Below are positions 13,862 to 25,977 of a DNA stretch of 33,423 nt, piece by piece. The notes beneath the pieces were generated by a model. It did not search any database. It was given only the letters and a program-made list of their open reading frames with translations, and had not been told where the DNA came from. Made by a program: the position numbers and the translations under genes. The number at the start of each line of letters is the position of its first letter. The first letter of the stretch is position 1. This stretch comes from Gammaproteobacteria bacterium (GTDB lineage: Bacteria > Pseudomonadota > Gammaproteobacteria > GCA-013414725): NCBI GenBank assembly GCA_049678805.1, contig JBAUEV010000228.1, positions 1-33,423 of the forward strand, given 5' to 3'.

Positions 13862-13919
13862 GGCATTATTGAGTTTATTTTAACGGGCTGTTGTCTTGGA
13901 TGCTAGGAATAAAATTGGA

Positions 13920-15428
13920 ATGGAAGACCTTTTAATTATAGGTGGTGGTATCAATGGCGTGGGCATCGCAGCAGATGCTGCGGGGCGTGGATTGAAAGTA
14001 ACGTTATGTGAAAAAGCCGATTTAGCCAGTGGTACTTCTTCTGCTAGCAGCAAATTGATTCACGGCGGTTTACGCTATCTGCAACAAGGTGAGTTTCGAT
14101 TAGTAAGAGAAGCTTTAAAAGAACGCGAAATCCTATGGGCTAAAGCGCCGCATATCATCCATCCTGAATTATTTATTCTGCCTTATGTCGAAACATTACA
14201 CCCCTTGTGGCAGATACGCTTGGGTCTGTGGTTGTATGACCATCTCGGCGGAAGGCAACGTTTACCAAAATCACATATGCTTGATTTGATTCAACATCCA
14301 GCGGGTAGCATTTTACAATCTAAATATAACAAGGGTTTTAGTTATATCGATTGTTACGTAGATGATGCGCGCTTGGTAGTGCTTAATGCCATTCAAGCTC
14401 AGCAATTGGGTGCTAAAATTTTGACTTATACTGAAATGCTGCAAGCACAACGCTATGCCGATTATTGGCGAGTGTTAGTACGGAGTAAAAACACTGGTAA
14501 AGAACAATGGCTAGAAACCCGCATTTTAATCAACGCAGCCGGACCTTGGGTACAGGAAGTATTGCATGATCGAATCGGGATTAAACCACACTACCAAACC
14601 ATTTTGGTAAAGGGCAGTCATATTGTGGTACCTAGATTCTTTAAGGAAAATTTTGCTTTCACTTTACAGAATGAAGATGGGCGGGTGATTTTTGTTATTC
14701 CCTTTGACGAGCGCTTTATTCTGATTGGCACTACTGAAGTTGGTTATCAGGGTGATCCCGCTAACGCAACGATTTCACCTGAAGAAATCGCTTATTTGTG
14801 TACTGCAGTAAATCGTTATTTTTCACATCAAATACAAATACAAGATGTAATATGGAGTTATGCGGGCGTACGACCTTTGCAAGGTACTGAGCAACAACAA
14901 CTCGGCAAGGTAAGTCGCGATTACAAACTAGAATTGAATACTGCACAACGGCATGCACCGTTGCTTTCAATATTTGGCGGTAAAATTACCACTTATCGTC
15001 GCTTAGCGGAACATGTCTTAAAACTGCTACAGACTTATTTTCCCCACATGGGACCTGAATGGACGGCAGCAACACCGTTGCCGGGCGGCGATATAAAGGG
15101 TGCAAATTTTGAAAATTTTTGTCAGCAATTTTCTACAAAATATTCTTGGTTGCCGCCCTCGTTGGCGTATCGTTATGCGCATTCCTATGGTACCCGTGCA
15201 GCATTATTTCTAAAAAATGCACAATCAATTGCCGATTTGGGGCAACCTATCGCTATGGGTTTATATCAGCAAGAAATACAATATCTTGTGGAAAATGAGT
15301 GGGCTTTGACTGCTGATGATATTTTATGGCGCCGCACAAAACTAGGCTTATTGTTCTCGAAAACAGATAAAAATAATTTAATTAAATACCTGACACAAAT
15401 GCTGCCAGCCAACACATTTTTGGATTAA
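13920..15428 (+). CDS. glpD: Aerobic glycerol-3-phosphate dehydrogenase
   Basis: The FAD-binding N-terminus MEDLLIIGGGINGVGIAADAAGRGL parallels the E. coli GlpD start. The ORF track extends to a TTG at 13896, so the start is ambiguous. Confidence 0.9.
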   Translation: MEDLLIIGGGINGVGIAADAAGRGLKVTLCEKADLASGTSSASSKLIHGGLRYLQQGEFRLVREALKEREILWAKAPHIIHPELFILPYVETLHPLWQIRLGLWLYDHLGGRQRLPKSHMLDLIQHPAGSILQSKYNKGFSYIDCYVDDARLVVLNAIQAQQLGAKILTYTEMLQAQRYADYWRVLVRSKNTGKEQWLETRILINAAGPWVQEVLHDRIGIKPHYQTILVKGSHIVVPRFFKENFAFTLQNEDGRVIFVIPFDERFILIGTTEVGYQGDPANATISPEEIAYLCTAVNRYFSHQIQIQDVIWSYAGVRPLQGTEQQQLGKVSRDYKLELNTAQRHAPLLSIFGGKITTYRRLAEHVLKLLQTYFPHMGPEWTAATPLPGGDIKGANFENFCQQFSTKYSWLPPSLAYRYAHSYGTRAALFLKNAQSIADLGQPIAMGLYQQEIQYLVENEWALTADDILWRRTKLGLLFSKTDKNNLIKYLTQMLPANTFLD

Positions 15429-20647: not shown

Positions 20648-21427
20648 CTAATGAGGTTCCCAAAATAATTGGCTGCCAAAATAAACAATAGCTAATAGTA
20701 ATACGCCGCTTAAGGTGCCGTAAATGGCTTTACGGCCACGCCAACCTAAATAATATCGCCCGCCAAGTAGCCAAGCGAATATCACCCAGGCAACAATGAC
20801 CAGTATCGTTTTTTGCAGCATATTATCGTTTAAAGTAGGATAATAAAAGTACAAACTACTCCCGAGCAATACCGTAAGTAATAAGAAACCTAAGCCAATC
20901 ATCTGAAATAATAATTTTTCCATGGTTTCCAGTGCTGGAAGTTGTTGGATGACATTGGAAGAAGGGCGGGAACGCAATTGGCGTTCGACAAGGGCTAATA
21001 ATATCGCTTGTAATCCGGCTACGCTTAACACACTGAACGTAAGCACTGAGAACAAAATGTGGGTGAGTTGACGAGGATTCGTTTTAGTATCGATAATCTC
21101 TTGGCCAGGGAATAATTGGACTAACAGAATGGAAAATGCTGCCACAGGAAAAATCAGGATAGTTAAATTTGCCACAGGTTTGCGAAACGCTGTTAATACA
21201 ATTAATAAAGCGATTAACCATGCTACCAGCGATAGCATATTAAGAAACGTTAAATTTTGCACCTGTCCTATATCTATCCAATGATATAATAACAAGGTAT
21301 GTAAACCGATCGCTATTAAACCTGTACTAAGCACCCATATTTTGCTAACTTGCCAGTTGCCGAACAACGTTAAGGCTTGCAATAAGGTTGCGATAAGATA
21401 AAAAAATAAGGTAATGATTGAGAGCAT
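20648..21427 (-). CDS. ypjD: Cytochrome c assembly family membrane protein (YpjD-like)
   Basis: 259-aa polytopic ORF, divergent from ffh as in enterobacteria. Confidence 0.7.
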   Translation of the reverse strand: MLSIITLFFYLIATLLQALTLFGNWQVSKIWVLSTGLIAIGLHTLLLYHWIDIGQVQNLTFLNMLSLVAWLIALLIVLTAFRKPVANLTILIFPVAAFSILLVQLFPGQEIIDTKTNPRQLTHILFSVLTFSVLSVAGLQAILLALVERQLRSRPSSNVIQQLPALETMEKLLFQMIGLGFLLLTVLLGSSLYFYYPTLNDNMLQKTILVIVAWVIFAWLLGGRYYLGWRGRKAIYGTLSGVLLLAIVYFGSQLFWEPH

Positions 21428-21454
21428 TTTTAATTTACAGTTGGAAAATAGATC

Positions 21455-22804
21455 ATGTTTGAAACACTCACCGAACGATTAACAAGGACTTTTAAAAATC
21501 TTACCGGGCAAGGACGTCTCACCGAGGATAACATCAAAGATACCTCACGTGAAGTGCAAATAGCTTTGTTAGAAGCGGATGTTGCTTTACCTGTAGTGAA
21601 ACAATTTATTAAAGATGTTAATGAGAAAGCCCTAGGGCAAGAGGTGATGCAAAGCTTACGCCCTGGTGAAGCGCTGATTAAGATTGTTTATGACGAATTG
21701 ATTGCAGTTTTAGGTAATGTGTTGGCTGATATAAACTTGCAAACTCAACCGCCCGCTGTCATTTTAGTTGCAGGTTTGCAGGGTTCAGGTAAAACCACAA
21801 CGGTTGCTAAGTTAGCAAAATGGCTACAGGAAACCAAGCATAAATCAGTATTATTGACAAGTGCTGACGTTTATCGACCTGCCGCTATTGAACAATTAGA
21901 AACGTTAGCAAAACAAGTTGGCAGCCATTATTTTCCAAGTACGCCGCAGCAAAATCCAGTAGAAATTGCCAAAGCAGCAGTGGCGCATGCGCGGGTTCAA
22001 TTTTACGATGTTGTTATCATTGATACTGCTGGTCGCTTGCATATTGATGAAACGATGATGGCGGAAATTCGTGCCGTTCACCAGGCCATTGACCCCATTG
22101 AAACCTTGTTTGTGGTGGACAGTCTTACTGGGCAAGATGCGGCCAATACTGCACGTGCATTTAATGAAGCACTCCCGTTAACGGGGGTTATTCTTACCAA
22201 AACGGATGGTGATGCTCGTGGTGGTGCTGCATTATCCGTGCGTTTAATCACCGGTAAGCCGATTAAATTTATGGGGACTGGTGAAAAGATTGATGCCCTA
22301 GAGCCTTTTTATCCTGATCGAGTTGCTTCGCGTATTTTAGGTATGGGCGATGTTCTGACCTTGGTTGAGGAAGTGCAGCGCAAAGTAGATCAGAAGCAAG
22401 CAAAAAAATTAGAGAAAAAACTGCACAAAGGTGCTTTTGATTTGGAAGATTTTTTAGAGCAATTAGCCCAAATGCGTAATATGGGTGGCATAACCAGCTT
22501 ATTAAGTAAATTGCCGGGCATAGGTTTGCCCACTCAAGCGCTTAAAACGGGGCTGGATGAAAAAATGTTTGTCCGAATGGAGGCGATGATTCGCTCTATG
22601 ACGCGGCAAGAGCGTCGTTTCCCTGCGGTTATCAATGGTTCGCGCAAACGGCGGATTGCCTCTGGTTCAGGTACACAAATTCAAGATGTTAACCGCCTTA
22701 TCAAGCAATTTTTGCAGATGCAAAAGACTATGAAAAAATTTAAAGGTGGCAATATGGTGGGAATGATGCAAAAGCTAAAGGGAATAATGCCGAATAAGTT
22801 TTAA
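21455..22804 (+). CDS. ffh: Signal recognition particle protein Ffh
   Basis: 449-aa ORF with an NG domain (GLQGSGKTTT, DTAGR, TKTDGD) and a Met-rich M domain. Confidence 0.97.
   Translation: MFETLTERLTRTFKNLTGQGRLTEDNIKDTSREVQIALLEADVALPVVKQFIKDVNEKALGQEVMQSLRPGEALIKIVYDELIAVLGNVLADINLQTQPPAVILVAGLQGSGKTTTVAKLAKWLQETKHKSVLLTSADVYRPAAIEQLETLAKQVGSHYFPSTPQQNPVEIAKAAVAHARVQFYDVVIIDTAGRLHIDETMMAEIRAVHQAIDPIETLFVVDSLTGQDAANTARAFNEALPLTGVILTKTDGDARGGAALSVRLITGKPIKFMGTGEKIDALEPFYPDRVASRILGMGDVLTLVEEVQRKVDQKQAKKLEKKLHKGAFDLEDFLEQLAQMRNMGGITSLLSKLPGIGLPTQALKTGLDEKMFVRMEAMIRSMTRQERRFPAVINGSRKRRIASGSGTQIQDVNRLIKQFLQMQKTMKKFKGGNMVGMMQKLKGIMPNKF
22728..22804 (+). repeat. Left 77-bp direct repeat (functional 3' end of ffh)
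   Basis: 73 of 77 positions are identical to 23443-23519 by hand alignment. Confidence 0.85.
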
Positions 22805-22811
22805 ATTTCTC

Positions 22812-22841
22812 TTGACAAATTAATTTATTTGTAACTACAAT
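22812..22841 (+). promoter_or_regulatory. Near-consensus sigma-70 promoter for brnTA
   Basis: TTGACA at 22812-22817, an 18-nt spacer, then TACAAT at 22836-22841. The inverted repeat TTGTA-ac-TACAA overlaps the -10. The brnT ATG is only 7 nt downstream. Confidence 0.5.
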
Positions 22842-22847
22842 TAAAAA

Positions 22848-23123
22848 ATGAAGATTGATTTCGATCCTGAAAAATCTCATAAAAACAAACTTAACCGTGG
22901 ATTGCCATTTGAAAGTGCAGCCGAATTTGATTGGGAAACGGCGATCTATCTCGAAGATACCCGAAATCCTTATCCTGAGCAAAGATTTGTGGCATTAGGT
23001 TTTCTAAATCAGAGATTGCACGTACTTTGTTTTACCCCTATCGTTGATGGGGTTCGAATCATTAGTTTCCGTAAAGCTAACTTACGGGAGATAAAACGTT
23101 ATGAAAAAGAAACCATTAACTAA
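22848..23123 (+). CDS. brnT: BrnT-family toxin (DUF497, RNase-type type II toxin)
   Basis: 91-aa ORF matching the BrnT pattern (F.DP.K...N...G..F, D.R..YPE.R, the central GF, and the C-terminal VRIISFRKA). Confidence 0.8.
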   Translation: MKIDFDPEKSHKNKLNRGLPFESAAEFDWETAIYLEDTRNPYPEQRFVALGFLNQRLHVLCFTPIVDGVRIISFRKANLREIKRYEKETIN

Positions 23124-23409
23124 TAAGTCAGGCCAAGTTCGAGAACTGACACGTCAAGATATTCGTATTATGCAATCTGCTAATAAAGTATTACCATCGA
23201 GCTTACTCGATGTGTTGGCAAAACGTAAACGTGGTCAACGTGGACCGCAAAAACAACCCAAAAAAATATCTATAACATTGCGTTATAGTCCAGAAGTGGT
23301 GAAGTATTTCAGAGCAATTGGCAAGGGTTGGCAAATATGTATGGATGAGGCGTTAAAGGAGTGGGTAAGGAAACATCCACGGCGGGCTAGCAGCTCGAAA
23401 GACCATTGA
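23101..23409 (+). CDS. brnA: BrnA-family antitoxin (DUF4415 / COG3514)
   Basis: 102-aa ORF with the C-terminal pattern ISITLRYSPEVVKYFRAIGKGWQICMDEALKEWV, typical of BrnA. It overlaps brnT by 23 nt and has a GGGAGA SD. Confidence 0.8.
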   Translation: MKKKPLTNKSGQVRELTRQDIRIMQSANKVLPSSLLDVLAKRKRGQRGPQKQPKKISITLRYSPEVVKYFRAIGKGWQICMDEALKEWVRKHPRRASSSKDH

Positions 23410-23442
23410 TATATAAAACCGCACTATAGCCATTATAAATGG

Positions 23443-23519
23443 CTATGAAAAAATTTAAAGGTGGCAATATGGCGGGAATGATGCAAAAACTAAAGGGAAT
23501 AATGCCGAATAGGTTTTAG
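23443..23519 (+). pseudogene. Right 77-bp direct repeat: displaced duplicate of the ffh 3' end
   Basis: It would encode MKKFKGGNMAGMMQKLKGIMPNRF*, versus ...MKKFKGGNMVGMMQKLKGIMPNKF* in ffh. No SD and no upstream ffh sequence are present. Confidence 0.8.
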
Positions 23520-23558
23520 GAATAGAATTTCGCTCTGTTTCATTCGGACTGTTTGCTT

Positions 23559-23712
23559 CAAGCTTGCGTGTAGGCTGCTTAGTTTTGTGCTCCACAGTGC
23601 ATCCATGTACCATCCCGTAAACCCGTTCACCCTGAGGAGCGGCACCAGGTGCCGCGTCTCGAAGGGCCTAAAACTAGTCGCATAAAACTAAGCAGCCTAT
23701 ACCCAAGACTTG
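23559..23712. mobile_element. MITE-like element: ~32-bp imperfect terminal inverted repeats around a GC-rich palindromic core
   Basis: The left arm caagcttgcgtgtaggctgcttagttttgtgc matches the reverse complement of the right arm, caagtcttgggtataggctgcttagttttatgc. The inner 20 bp match at 19 of 20. No ORF is present. Confidence 0.5.
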
Positions 23713-23720
23713 CTTAGTAT

Positions 23721-24173
23721 TTACAATACTAATTTAGACCCTGGCATCGGTGTGCATTGATGGTATTGAGGGTCTTTTACGAATTGAGATAAATCAATGT
23801 TGTAAAATTTAGGTTCTGCTGAATAGGTTCCATTATTGTTGTTAACAATGAATACATCGCTTTCGAGAGATTGACAATTCGTGCCTGTATTATCAGGACA
23901 AATAGAAAAATCAATTTGATTTTTCCCAATAAAATTTGGAGCTTGTTGGGGAGTGATCTCAGTGGTATTAGTGTAGTTTACACAATCCACCATGGAAGCC
24001 CCTTTAAAAGTAAGCTTAATGTATCTTCCATTATCGATGGTCCTTGGTAACCCACTTACATAAGCACAATGGATAGAGTCAGTCATACAATCGCTGGGAT
24101 CTGCATGCGCTGTGACGCTGAATGTTAAGAGAATGGCTGTTACGCCTAATAATGAAGAAATGGAATATTTCAT
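23721..24173 (-). CDS. Small secreted six-cysteine protein of unknown function
   Basis: 150 aa from the ATG at 24173 (AAGGGG SD). Signal peptide MKYSISSLLGVTAILLTFSVTAHA/DP. The mature part has six Cys. The upstream part of the 177-aa track ORF runs into a palindrome and is rejected. Confidence 0.65.
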   Translation of the reverse strand: MKYSISSLLGVTAILLTFSVTAHADPSDCMTDSIHCAYVSGLPRTIDNGRYIKLTFKGASMVDCVNYTNTTEITPQQAPNFIGKNQIDFSICPDNTGTNCQSLESDVFIVNNNNGTYSAEPKFYNIDLSQFVKDPQYHQCTPMPGSKLVL

Positions 24174-24239
24174 ATCTTTACCCCTTGAGTTAGGTTTGTA
24201 AAAAAAATCAATGGAAGCTAGGTAATAGCTCAGTCCCCT

Positions 24240-24270
24240 TGTATCCTCCCCCATGAAGGAGGAGGATACA
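24240..24270. repeat. GC-rich palindrome related to 2852-2880
   Basis: tgtatcctcc-cccatgaagga-ggaggataca has a 10-bp perfect stem plus 2 further pairs. Its core matches ~21 of 27 positions of the dnaK-downstream palindrome. Confidence 0.6.
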
Positions 24271-24415
24271 TTTCTTGATTCAGTACATAACTGAAAAAAG
24301 CATTCTAACTTAACAAATTAAGAAGGCAACTCTTCCTTCTTGGTCCGATTTTGCGTAGAATGCAACATTCATATTTACCTGTAGAAATTTAATAGGCAGA
24401 GAGGAAACAACATCA

Positions 24416-24751
24416 ATGGTTGTAATTCGTTTAGCACGGGGCGGCGCCAAGAAAAAGCCGTTTTATCATGTAGTCATCACCGACCGCCGTAATTCACGCG
24501 ATGGCCGTTATATCGAGCGTGTGGGTATCTTCAGTCCTGTAGCAAAAGGGGCTGATATTTACTTAAGGCTTAACCAAGAACGTATCAAGCATTGGTTAGG
24601 ACAAGGCGCACAACCCAGTTCTCGGGTCACGCAACTTATCGAACAATTTGCTAAAACAGGTGAAATTACCGGCACTGTTTTTACCGCAAATCGGCCGGTT
24701 CGTAAGCGTAAACAGCCTGTAGCTGAAGTGGCTGCGAGTGAAGCTGCATAA
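24416..24751 (+). CDS. rpsP: 30S ribosomal protein S16 (with a C-terminal extension)
   Basis: Starts MVVIRLARGGAKKKPFYHVVITD. At 111 aa it is longer than the ~82-aa enterobacterial form. Confidence 0.97.
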   Translation: MVVIRLARGGAKKKPFYHVVITDRRNSRDGRYIERVGIFSPVAKGADIYLRLNQERIKHWLGQGAQPSSRVTQLIEQFAKTGEITGTVFTANRPVRKRKQPVAEVAASEAA

Positions 24752-24758
24752 AAAAACA

Positions 24759-25253
24759 ATGAATGAGGTAGTTGTAGGACGTTTTGGTGCTCCGCATGGG
24801 CTTAATGGTTTGATTAAAGTTAACTCATTCACTCAGCCCATTAACAATATCTTGCATTATCGTCCTTGGCTTATTCAAACAAATGGCGAGTGGCAACCCT
24901 TAGCGTTGCAGACCGTGGAGCAGCGTGGCCGCAATATTGTTGCTAAACCCGTAGGTTGTAATGACTCTGAAGCTGCCCGCCACTATACCAGTCTGGATAT
25001 TGCTATAACGCGCGATCAATTACCCTCTTTGCCAGCAGGGGAATATTATTGGCATGAGTTAGTTGGTTTACGTGTGGTTAACCAAGAGGGCGTTGAGTTA
25101 GGGGTAGTGGATTCTTTGTTGGCGACTGGCGCTAATGATGTGCTGGTAGTCAAAGGTGAACGTGAACGACTGATTCCCTATTTAAAACAAGTTATTTTGC
25201 GGGTAGATGCAGCGAAAGGGGTAATTAAAGTGGATTGGGATGCAACGTTTTAA
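24759..25253 (+). CDS. rimM: 16S rRNA processing protein RimM
   Basis: [18 protein letters not shown] plus a PRC barrel. The ATG at 24759 avoids overlap with rpsP. The ORF track starts at a GTG at 24738. Confidence 0.9.
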
Positions 25254-25254
25254 A

Positions 25255-25977
25255 ATGTGGGTAGGTATTGTTAGTCTTTTTCCAGAAATGCTTGATGCTC
25301 TTCATTATGGTATCACGGGTCGAGCACTCGAAACAGGATTACTCATCTTGCAACACTGGAATCCACGTGATTATAGTTACGATAAGCATCGTACAGTAGA
25401 CGATCGCCCTTATGGGGGTGGGCCTGGAATGGTGATGAAGGTCCAGCCATTACGTGATGCCATTTACGCTGCCAAAGCAGCAGCAAATGGCGCAGCGCGA
25501 GTAGTCCATCTTTCGCCGCAAGGACGATTACTGACACAGAATAGTGTTGCTGAGCTTGCTCAACGTGAACGCTTAATTTTAATTGCTGGGCGTTATGAAG
25601 GGATTGATGAACGATTGATTGCAGCGGAAGTTGATGAAGAATGGTCAATTGGTGACTACGTCCTCAGTGGTGGTGAATTAGCGGCCATGGTTATGATTGA
25701 TGCTATAACCCGTTTATTGCCTGAAGCATTAGGTGATGACCAATCGGCGCAACAAGATTCATTTACTAATAATTTGTTAGATTATCCGCATTACACACGG
25801 CCAGAGAGTTGTGAAATACCAGCAGTATTGCTCAGTGGCGATCATCAAGCAATTGCACGCTGGCGTTTGCAGCAAGCATTAGGACGCACTTGGTTACGAC
25901 GTCCGGATTTGTTGGCAAAGAGGACATTGACGGACACTGAACAAGCACTACTGGACGAATTTAAAAGTAATCTCTAA
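25255..25977 (+). CDS. trmD: tRNA (guanine37-N1)-methyltransferase TrmD
   Basis: [12 protein letters not shown] parallels the E. coli TrmD N-terminus. An alternative upstream ATG lies at 25240. Confidence 0.93.

What the first reader, a model, noticed from the sequence alone, without database searches (positions are those of the whole stretch)
22728..23519. BrnT/BrnA toxin-antitoxin cassette bracketed by 77-bp direct repeats that duplicate the 3' end of ffh
- The last 77 nt of ffh, including the stop (22728-22804), recur at 23443-23519 with 4 substitutions. Two of these change the encoded residues (V to A, K to R) and one changes TAA to TAG.
- The ~640 bp between the copies contains only a strong promoter and brnT-brnA.
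- This is the footprint of integration into the 3' end of a conserved gene: the incoming DNA supplies a replacement gene end, and the displaced native end remains as a relic.
- ffh is not a classical integration target, unlike tRNA or tmRNA genes.
- No integrase is present, so the mobilising function is missing, degraded or supplied in trans.
Basis: seen in the sequence. Interest (0 to 1): 0.6.

Follow-up and report, generated by a model that had tools for sequence, protein, structure and literature searches.

The report
Toxin-antitoxin insert duplicating ffh's end
A small BrnT/BrnA toxin-antitoxin gene pair was inserted exactly at the stop codon of the essential ffh gene of an uncultured Coxiella-related bacterium, leaving a 76-base copy of the gene's end behind it; this looks like a one-off recombination scar, not the footprint of a new mobile element that targets ffh.

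Summary
The last 76-77 nt of ffh (22728-22804) recur at 23443-23519 with 4 differences, and this pair is unique in the 1.83-Mb genome. Between the copies lie only a consensus-like promoter, brnT, brnA and 54 nt of unknown origin.

The three closest Ffh lineages (85-91% identity) all have ffh followed by rpsP after 91-98 bp, so the site is empty there.

The "integrative element" reading is weakly supported:
- Eight homologous BrnTA cassettes elsewhere sit at eight unrelated sites, without repeats, integrase or ffh.
- The conserved cassette unit starts within about 3 nt of the ffh stop and ends 2 codons before the normal brnA stop, so there is no room for att arms.
- The contig has no recombinase, and the genome has one distant Xer-like protein.
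- The right junction is a 9-bp palindrome with 4-5 nt of microhomology.

I favour an integrase-independent duplicative insertion, either illegitimate or homology-anchored; a comparable single-crossover product is documented in E. coli. Copy B would be the displaced native end, since it keeps the ancestral Ala.

The finding is a neat example of a known kind and of modest interest.

The parts
21455..22804 (+). ffh (signal recognition particle protein, 449 aa), intact
   Evidence: Pfam SRP54_N, SRP54 and SRP_SPB. 91%, 87% and 85% identical to the metagenomic relatives P0002-P0004.
22728..22804 (+). Repeat copy A: the last 76 nt of ffh plus the final base of the stop codon. It carries the derived states GTG (Val) and AAG.
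22812..22841 (+). brnTA promoter: -35 TTGACA at 22812-22817 and -10 TACAAT at 22836-22841. An inverted-repeat operator candidate, TTGTA-AC-TACAA (22829-22840), overlaps the -10.
   Evidence: Consensus scan, 11 of 12 positions. The same sequence is conserved in all close cassettes examined (L039-L042, L055, L056, L058). Conservation starts about 6 nt upstream of the -35, which is within about 3 nt of the ffh stop.
22848..23123 (+). brnT, toxin of the BrnT family (91 aa)
   Evidence: PF04365 at 1.5e-20, matching positions 1-77 of the 77-position profile. Weak match to the PDB toxin 7VD7. Single copy in the genome.
23101..23409 (+). brnA, antitoxin (102 aa), overlapping brnT by 23 nt. Homology to relatives ends at 23388 (...CGGGCT), two codons before the usual stop. 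The ORF then reads 7 foreign codons (SSSKDH).
   Evidence: PF14384 at 6.8e-16. Protein and DNA alignments with relatives.
23389..23442 (+). 54-nt filler of unknown origin. It contains the new brnA end and stop, and the left arm of the junction palindrome.
   Evidence: No other copy in the genome. Not alignable to the downstream regions of relatives.
23426..23446 (.). Perfect 9-bp palindrome ATAGCCATT-ATA-AATGGCTAT spanning the right junction. Its last 4 nt (CTAT) are the first bases of copy B.
   Evidence: Sequence reading. Fold -13.2 kcal/mol, z = -2.2.
23443..23519 (+). Repeat copy B: a relic of the ffh 3' end. It keeps the ancestral GCG (Ala) and AAA, and has the derived AGG (Arg) and a TAG stop. 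An in-frame ATG at 23439 creates a 26-codon ORF with no obvious ribosome-binding site.
23563..23707 (.). MITE/REP-like element with 28-nt inverted arms, dispersed through the genome. It is part of the extra DNA between ffh and rpsP but not of the cassette.
   Evidence: Inverted repeat I1. Tens of partial copies on other contigs.
23721..24176 (-). Orphan secreted-protein ORF (151 aa from the MKYSISS start). It is also absent from the relatives' ffh-rpsP spacer.
   Evidence: no Pfam family; relatives lack it.
24332..24415 (+). Native ffh-rpsP spacer (rpsP leader and promoter region), homologous to the whole spacer of relatives L038 and L034
24416..24751 (+). rpsP (ribosomal protein S16), first gene of the rpsP-rimM-trmD-rplS operon
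   Evidence: PF00886 at 2.4e-25. Same synteny in relatives.

Best explanation
A solitary, self-regulated BrnT/BrnA type II toxin-antitoxin operon was captured by an integrase-independent recombination event. The captured piece is a conserved unit of about 580 bp (promoter/operator, brnT, brnA) plus 54 nt of unknown DNA. Its left end was joined at the ffh stop codon. Its right end was joined 76 nt further upstream in ffh, so the last 76 nt of ffh now flank the insert as direct repeats. The most parsimonious route is a one-step, microhomology-mediated illegitimate insertion with staggered joins. The alternative within the same class is a homology-anchored event, either homology-facilitated illegitimate recombination (HFIR) or a single crossover of a circularised fragment, from a donor that already had brnTA behind ffh. 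Copy A completes the functional, essential ffh. Copy B is the displaced, decaying native end. Once in place, the cassette would persist as an addiction module: BrnA represses the promoter at the inverted repeat over the -10, and BrnT is an RNase toxin. It would also select against RecA-mediated deletion between the 76-nt repeats. Shown: the structure, the empty site in relatives, the cassette boundaries, the absence of integrases and the absence of repeats at other cassette loci. Inferred: the recombination route, operator function, toxin activity and addiction.
For: (1) Empty site. The Ffh relatives at 91%, 87% and 85% identity all have ffh, then a 91-98 bp spacer, then rpsP-rimM-trmD-rplS, with the same upstream genes. 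(2) Cassette boundaries. Conservation among homologous cassettes begins about 6 nt upstream of the -35 box, within about 3 nt of the ffh stop. It ends at 23388, two codons before the normal brnA stop, so the acquired unit is just the operon and brnA was clipped at the join. (3) Eight other cassettes of this subfamily (73-77% nt identity where measured, 71-75% BrnA identity) lie at eight different sites between housekeeping genes. None has a flanking direct repeat, an adjacent integrase or ffh nearby. (4) There is no tyrosine recombinase on the contig. Genome-wide there is one distant Xer-like protein (38 bits to PF00589; 58 bits against a 335-bit XerC cut-off) and one broken fragment. (5) The right junction is a perfect 9-bp palindrome ending in CTAT, which is shared with ffh (GA-CTATG-AAA). 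That is 4-5 nt of microhomology. (6) Polarity. Copy B has the ancestral Ala and AAA; copy A has a Val unique to this genome. (7) Precedent. In E. coli, a single crossover of circular DNA carrying a partial gene end gave 109-950 bp duplications of that gene end flanking the insert, and this was commoner than HFIR (PMC3240628). HFIR has been proposed for displaced gene 3' ends (PMC5361080). (8) A-B divergence (3 of 76 nt) is far below the 16% divergence from the nearest relative, so this is a lineage-specific event.
Against: No same-species genome or read data could be examined, so neither the polymorphism nor the exact pre-insertion allele is known. The microhomology is short and AT-rich and could be chance. 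The palindrome could instead be a hairpin brought in from the donor. An exact join at the stop codon of an essential gene with a neat gene-end duplication is also what site-specific gene-end-replacing elements produce, and a past integrase could have been deleted. No donor and no source of the 54-nt filler were found. No foreign tract is visible in ffh, which neither supports nor excludes the anchored variants at this resolution.
Confidence: 0.6

Rival explanations
1. The locus is the remnant of a site-specific integrative element (island, satellite or prophage) that used the ffh 3' end as attB and carried a replacement gene end. The integrase and the rest of the element were later deleted, or the mini-element is mobilised in trans.
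For: Direct repeats duplicate the 3' end of a conserved gene up to the stop codon, and the gene stays intact, as with e14/phage 21 at icd or SGI1 at trmE (own knowledge; trmE in PMC8409611). The differences fall on both sides in a pattern compatible with a crossover between offsets 47 and 70. TA modules are common survivors of decayed islands. A classical tRNA island with a truncated P4-like integrase exists elsewhere in the genome (C187).
Against: There is no integrase on the contig, and only one distant Xer-like recombinase in the genome. There is no room for element DNA other than the operon plus 54 nt. brnA is clipped at the right join, which is unusual for a conservative site-specific event. 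None of the eight related cassettes is at ffh or has repeats. No ffh-targeting element was found in the literature search; only ffs turned up. Phage records with Ffh hits carry full-length host ffh through contamination.
Confidence: 0.2
2. Two separate events occurred: a 76-nt tandem duplication of the ffh end arose first by slippage or unequal exchange, and the cassette later landed between the two copies.
For: Short tandem duplications are common, and the genome has many local two-copy repeats.
Against: It needs two independent events at exactly the same base, the stop codon. No relative shows a tandem ffh-end duplication.
Confidence: 0.07
3. The structure is an assembly artefact: a chimeric join of two strain variants in a 300-contig metagenome-assembled genome creates an apparent duplication.
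For: The genome is fragmented (300 contigs). The two copies differ like strain alleles. The locus exists in a single assembly only. Read-level data could not be consulted.
Against: The join from unique cassette sequence into the middle of the ffh end (23442/23443) must exist in reads. An assembler switching between strains would do so inside shared sequence and would not create that junction. Flanks on both sides are colinear with relatives for more than 10 kb. The cassette is intact, with its own conserved promoter.
Confidence: 0.05

Closest known systems
BrnT/BrnA type II toxin-antitoxin system (Brucella abortus prototype; Pfam PF04365/PF14384)
   Same: Both domains are present at full length. 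The operon is toxin-first with overlapping genes. The promoter has an inverted repeat over the -10 that is conserved across homologous cassettes. The pair is solitary and patchily distributed (9 of 400 genomes of the class), and the family is also found on plasmids.
   Different: BrnA has lost its last two codons and reads 7 foreign codons. No activity has been tested. The nearest relatives are only 64-76% identical.
Gene-end-replacing integrative elements (e14 and phage 21 at icd; SGI1 at trmE; islands at guaA or dusA)
   Same: An intact conserved gene is followed by the insert and then by a displaced partial copy of the gene end as a direct repeat.
   Different: There is no integrase, no further element genes and no recurrence at the same target in other genomes. 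One cargo gene is clipped at the junction. ffh is not a reported target; only ffs, the SRP RNA gene, is (PMC12540744).
Single-crossover (Campbell-type) and homology-facilitated illegitimate recombination products
   Same: A duplication of a partial gene end flanks foreign DNA without any site-specific recombinase, as in the 109-950 bp lacZ-end duplications in E. coli (PMC3240628). A short microhomology lies at the non-homologous join.
   Different: Here the duplicated segment is shorter (76 nt). No donor with a pre-existing ffh-brnTA adjacency is known, and the event is inferred from one genome only.
pdif (XerC/XerD) modules carrying TA genes on Acinetobacter plasmids (own knowledge)
   Same: A small discrete TA-only module without its own recombinase.
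   Different: The location is chromosomal. There is no dif-like site in the window, the flanks are direct gene-end repeats and not inverted Xer sites, and the genome lacks canonical XerC/XerD.

Membership tests
BrnT/BrnA type II toxin-antitoxin | Toxin with a BrnT (DUF497) domain | tested here: met
   PF04365 at 1.5e-20, 73.7 bits against a 34.5-bit cut-off, profile positions 1-77 of 77.
BrnT/BrnA type II toxin-antitoxin | Adjacent antitoxin with a BrnA (DUF4415) domain, co-oriented, with the toxin gene first | tested here: met
   PF14384 at 6.8e-16. 23-nt overlap with brnT. The same arrangement occurs in eight related loci.
BrnT/BrnA type II toxin-antitoxin | Autoregulated promoter bound by the antitoxin or the complex | tested here: inconclusive
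   A conserved TTGACA-N18-TACAAT promoter with the inverted repeat TTGTA-AC-TACAA is present in homologous cassettes. Binding was not tested.
BrnT/BrnA type II toxin-antitoxin | RNase toxicity neutralised by the antitoxin | not testable with these tools
   Needs expression of brnT with and without brnA in a laboratory strain.
Site-specific integrative element with gene-end replacement | Direct repeats (attL/attR) that duplicate the target gene's 3' end | tested here: met
   76-77 nt repeat, 94-96% identical, unique in the genome.
Site-specific integrative element with gene-end replacement | An integrase (tyrosine or serine recombinase) encoded in or next to the element | tested here: not met
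   No PF00589 match on contig C228. Genome-wide there is one distant Xer-like protein and one broken fragment. Serine recombinases were not searched.
Site-specific integrative element with gene-end replacement | The same element or target pair recurs in other genomes | tested here: not met
   Eight related cassettes at eight other sites have no repeats. Close ffh relatives are empty. Exact-pattern scans found nothing.
Site-specific integrative element with gene-end replacement | Excision to a circular form and restoration of attB | not testable with these tools
pdif / Xer-dependent module | Flanking XerC-spacer-XerD sites | tested here: not met
   No match to a degenerate dif consensus with up to 3 mismatches in the window. 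The consensus was taken from my own knowledge.
Recombination-mediated (single-crossover / HFIR / illegitimate) insertion | Duplication or deletion of recipient DNA at the insert, with microhomology at the non-homologous join and no recombinase sites | tested here: inconclusive
   The duplication is present. There is a CTAT(G) microhomology and a 9-bp palindrome at the right join, and the cargo gene is clipped. However, the microhomology is short and no donor is known.

The most novel reading that the evidence does not exclude
The ffh scar may be the cleanest instance of a genome-wide, integrase-free 'duplicative capture' process in this Coxiella-related bacterium. At least six other loci show a 50-110 nt piece of a conserved gene (tpx, rsmD, nuoN, uvrB, lpxB, a TPR gene) repeated on the far side of an adjacent accessory gene (effector-like, TA-like, or an Rpn nuclease). 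The genome carries 7 Rpn/YhgA recombination-promoting nuclease genes and almost no integrases. If one mechanism makes all of these, it would be an undescribed route by which intracellular bacteria acquire effector and TA genes. Alternatively, ffh could be the attB of an unknown family of TA-only satellites.
Probability: 0.12. Interest if true: 0.65.

Novelty: new member of a known kind. Interest (0 to 1): 0.3.

Why it matters
The locus is a well-resolved natural example of how a selfish TA operon can enter the chromosome at the very end of an essential gene without harming it. Both junctions are definable to within a few bases, and an empty site exists in relatives. It also shows that a gene-end duplication, usually read as an att-site footprint, can plausibly arise without an integrase. 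That is a caution for island-prediction methods that rely on flanking direct repeats. The 76-nt repeats set up a testable conflict between RecA-mediated precise deletion and TA addiction. The side observation of similar gene-fragment repeats around other accessory genes could, if followed up, say something about gene acquisition in integrase-poor intracellular bacteria.

Tried and rejected
- Same-species alleles: exact-pattern scans for the ffh end (A, B or L034 variants) in metagenome and genome collections found nothing. No Ffh above 91% identity and no BrnA above 76% identity exists in the protein collection.
- Operator-signature scans for the cassette in genome and viral collections found nothing. 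The cassette DNA has no plasmid match.
- Donor tract in ffh: sliding-window identity to three relatives shows no anomaly, but the resolution is poor.
- Templated filler: the 54-nt filler and the 43 nt after copy B have no source elsewhere in the genome.
- dif/Xer module idea: no dif-like site and no canonical XerC/XerD.
- Phage-borne ffh 3' fragments: 19 phage records matched. ON470592.1, the only record inspected, carries full-length host ffh as flanking DNA, and its P2-like prophage lies after rplS. The other matches are long (16 of the 19 records cover at least 80% of the query), not short 3' fragments.
- Relation between the secreted ORF next to the cassette and the one beside G050's brnTA: none.
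- Using the other duplicated loci as clean parallels: their relics are internal gene fragments. Only C286 reaches the gene end. The lpxB locus involves a rearrangement, since lpxB and rnhB are on opposite strands in G001 and G006. They were therefore kept only as a side observation.
Full report
**Observation.** The window is a complete 33,423-bp contig (C228) of a 1.83-Mb, 300-contig genome.

The repeat:
- The repeat finder reports one long direct repeat in 21000-25500: 22722-22803 versus 23437-23518, 82 nt at 94% identity.
- A BLAST of the 77-mer against the whole genome finds only these two copies (E 2.8e-30 for the second). The 638-bp interval between them is single-copy.

The genes:
- ffh (21455-22804) has the three SRP54 domains.
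- The 91-aa ORF at 22848-23123 is a full-length BrnT (PF04365, 1.5e-20).
- The 102-aa ORF at 23101-23409 is a BrnA (PF14384, 6.8e-16).
- A TTGACA-18-TACAAT promoter lies at 22812-22841.
- No tRNA, tmRNA or Rfam family is present in the window.

**Empty site in relatives.** The genome has only one same-family representative among 199,900 species genomes. The protein collection, however, holds Ffh proteins of 91%, 87% and 85% identity. Their contigs (L032 to L038) all show CorC, a cytochrome c assembly protein, ffh, a 91-98 bp spacer, then rpsP-rimM-trmD-rplS.

The spacer of L038 and L034 is recognisable in the window only from 24332 onward. So about 1.5 kb (22805-24331) is extra here:
- the cassette,
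- copy B,
- a dispersed MITE/REP-like element (23563-23707, tens of partial copies in the genome),
- an orphan secreted-protein ORF (23721-24176, minus strand).

Copy B is therefore followed by other non-ancestral DNA and not by the native spacer. That block was either already there when the cassette arrived or came later.

**Which copy is native.** At the Val/Ala site the relatives have Ala, Ala and Ser. At the AAG/AAA site they have AAA. At the Lys/Arg site they have Lys. Copy B thus keeps two ancestral states and has one derived state, while copy A has two derived states, including a Val seen in no other Ffh. This fits copy B as the displaced native end, which later picked up one neutral change. 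It does not discriminate between mechanisms. A-B divergence (3 of 76 nt) is far smaller than the 16% nucleotide divergence from the nearest relative, so the event is specific to this lineage.

**Boundaries of the acquired DNA.** BrnA's nearest relatives are 64-76% identical. I fetched eight loci of this subfamily: L039-L042, L055 (genome G050) and L056-L058.
- Alignment shows that conservation begins about 6 nt upstream of the -35 box. It includes the promoter and an inverted repeat, TTGTA-AC-TACAA, over the -10, which is a likely BrnA operator.
- The left junction is therefore within about 3 nt of the ffh stop codon. The TAA/TAG difference may be the junction itself.
- On the right, homology ends at 23388 (...CGGGCT), two codons before the usual brnA stop. 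The ORF then reads seven foreign codons.
- The following 54 nt match nothing in the genome or in the relatives.
- The last bases of this filler form a perfect 9-bp palindrome with the first four bases (CTAT) of copy B. ffh reads GA-CTATG-AAA at the corresponding place.

The acquired unit is thus just the operon, one cargo gene is clipped, and the right join shows a palindrome plus 4-5 nt of microhomology.

**Is it a mobile element that targets ffh?**
- All eight related cassettes are solitary pairs wedged between unrelated genes, mostly housekeeping ones: after uvrA, between pntA and lipB, between an aminotransferase and clpB, next to HipA or restriction genes, and so on. None has a flanking direct repeat at E <= 0.01, none is near ffh, and none has an adjacent integrase.
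- The contig has no tyrosine recombinase. The whole genome has one distant Xer-like protein (38 bits to PF00589; 58 bits against a 335-bit XerC cut-off) and one broken fragment.
- No dif-like site is present in the window.
- A literature search found a phage att site in ffs, the SRP RNA gene (PMC12540744), but nothing for ffh.
- Phage records that match the Ffh C-terminus are host DNA carried along. ON470592.1, the one inspected in detail, has a full-length ffh operon with a P2-like prophage after rplS.

The defining features of a site-specific integrative element, other than the repeat itself, are therefore not met.

**Most likely mechanism.** Integrase-free routes are documented to give this topology.
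- In E. coli, circular DNA carrying a partial lacZ end integrated by a single crossover and produced 109-950 bp duplications of that gene end around the insert. This was more frequent than homology-facilitated illegitimate recombination (PMC3240628).
- HFIR has been invoked for displaced gene 3' ends in Vibrio T6SS clusters (PMC5361080).
- Microhomology-driven double illegitimate recombination is known from Acinetobacter.

I favour a one-step illegitimate insertion whose two joins were staggered by 76 nt, because it needs no hypothetical donor with brnTA already behind ffh. The anchored variants remain possible and would make copy A's Val and AAG donor alleles. No foreign tract is visible in ffh, but the comparators are too distant to tell.

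After insertion, the TA pair probably acts as an addiction module. It would select against RecA-mediated deletion between the repeats. This is inference.

**Rivals.**
- A decayed site-specific element (0.2) cannot be excluded, because a neat gene-end duplication is its hallmark.
- Tandem duplication first, then insertion (0.07), needs two coincident events.
- An assembly artefact (0.05) is unlikely, because the join of unique cassette DNA to the middle of the ffh end must exist in reads.

**Side observation.** A self-BLAST of the genome found further two-copy local repeats in which a 50-110 nt piece of a conserved gene recurs beyond an adjacent accessory gene:
- tpx and a secreted hydrolase (C133, 55 nt, 98%),
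- rsmD and Ada/Ogt (C66),
- a TPR gene and an Rpn/YhgA nuclease (C286),
- nuoN and a U-box-ankyrin protein (C7),
- uvrB and a 786-aa protein (C156),
- lpxB and an LRR protein (C172),
- a DUF4160/DUF2442 pair between 83-nt repeats spaced 718 bp apart (C156).

Most of these relics are internal fragments that abut REP/MITE-like elements. The lpxB locus also involves a rearrangement. I could not establish a common mechanism. These loci suggest that such scars are not special to ffh in this genome, which also has seven Rpn-family nuclease genes.

**Verdict.** This is a real and tidy insertion scar. The TA identification is correct. The 'ffh-specific integrative element' reading is not supported. 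It is a new member of known kinds (BrnTA cassettes; recombination-generated gene-end duplications) and of modest interest.

Noticed in passing
G000 contigs C133:3736-5324, C66:2313-3640, C286:3595-5584, C7:178-2152, C156:14806-17522, C172:11920-13283: Six further loci where a 50-110 nt fragment of a conserved gene (tpx, rsmD, a TPR gene, nuoN, uvrB, lpxB) is repeated on the far side of an adjacent accessory gene (secreted hydrolase, Ada/Ogt, Rpn nuclease, U-box-ankyrin protein, 786-aa protein, LRR protein). Most relics are internal gene pieces that abut REP/MITE-like repeats. The lpxB case also involves a rearrangement relative to G001 and G006.
   Followed up: partly
G000 C156:13994-14800: A DUF4160/DUF2442 gene pair (a candidate TA-like module, minus strand) is bracketed by 83-89 nt direct repeats spaced 718 bp apart. 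That is almost the same geometry as the brnTA cassette. A second 46-nt repeat pair lies outside it (13875-13920 and 14857-14902).
   Followed up: partly
Tens of full or partial copies lie on other contigs, some in tandem arrays (C224, C215, C172). It is probably a cause of the fragmented assembly.
   Followed up: partly
window 23439-23519: The junction creates an in-frame ATG, so copy B could encode a 26-aa peptide (MAMKKFKGGNMAGMMQKLKGIMPNRF) equal to the Ffh C-terminal tail. There is no obvious ribosome-binding site, so it is probably not expressed.
   Followed up: no
G000 C55:3276-4583; whole genome: The genome seems to lack canonical XerC/XerD. The only tyrosine recombinase is a 415-436 aa distant Xer-like protein on a contig that also carries an Rpn-family gene and a 343-nt tandem repeat.
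   Followed up: partly
G000 C239, C121, C289, C286, C55, C247, C112: Seven copies (five full-length) of Rpn/YhgA-like PD-(D/E)XK 'Transposase_31' genes in a 1.83-Mb genome.
   Followed up: no
G000 C187:4062-9397: A classical tRNA-associated islet. 63-nt repeats of a tRNA 3' end (4650-4712 and 9335-9397) flank a 1120-aa gene, and a truncated P4-like integrase N-terminus lies beside it. The neighbouring 709-aa gene has its first ~100 nt repeated downstream (1684-1789 and 3968-4071).
   Followed up: no
protein P0122 (metagenomic BrnA relative, 139 aa): This BrnA homologue carries an internal duplication of its N-terminal ~40 residues.
   Followed up: no
phage collection record ON470592.1 (L063): The record 'Escherichia phage vB_EcoM-613R3, partial genome' includes about 11 kb of host chromosome (recN to rplS, including full-length ffh). 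The P2-like prophage starts after rplS. Several other 'phage' records with Ffh hits also look like host DNA.
   Followed up: partly
window 24320-24341: A hairpin, AAGAAGG-N-CCTTCTT, lies at the boundary between the extra DNA and the native rpsP leader. Its right arm belongs to the conserved native spacer.
   Followed up: no
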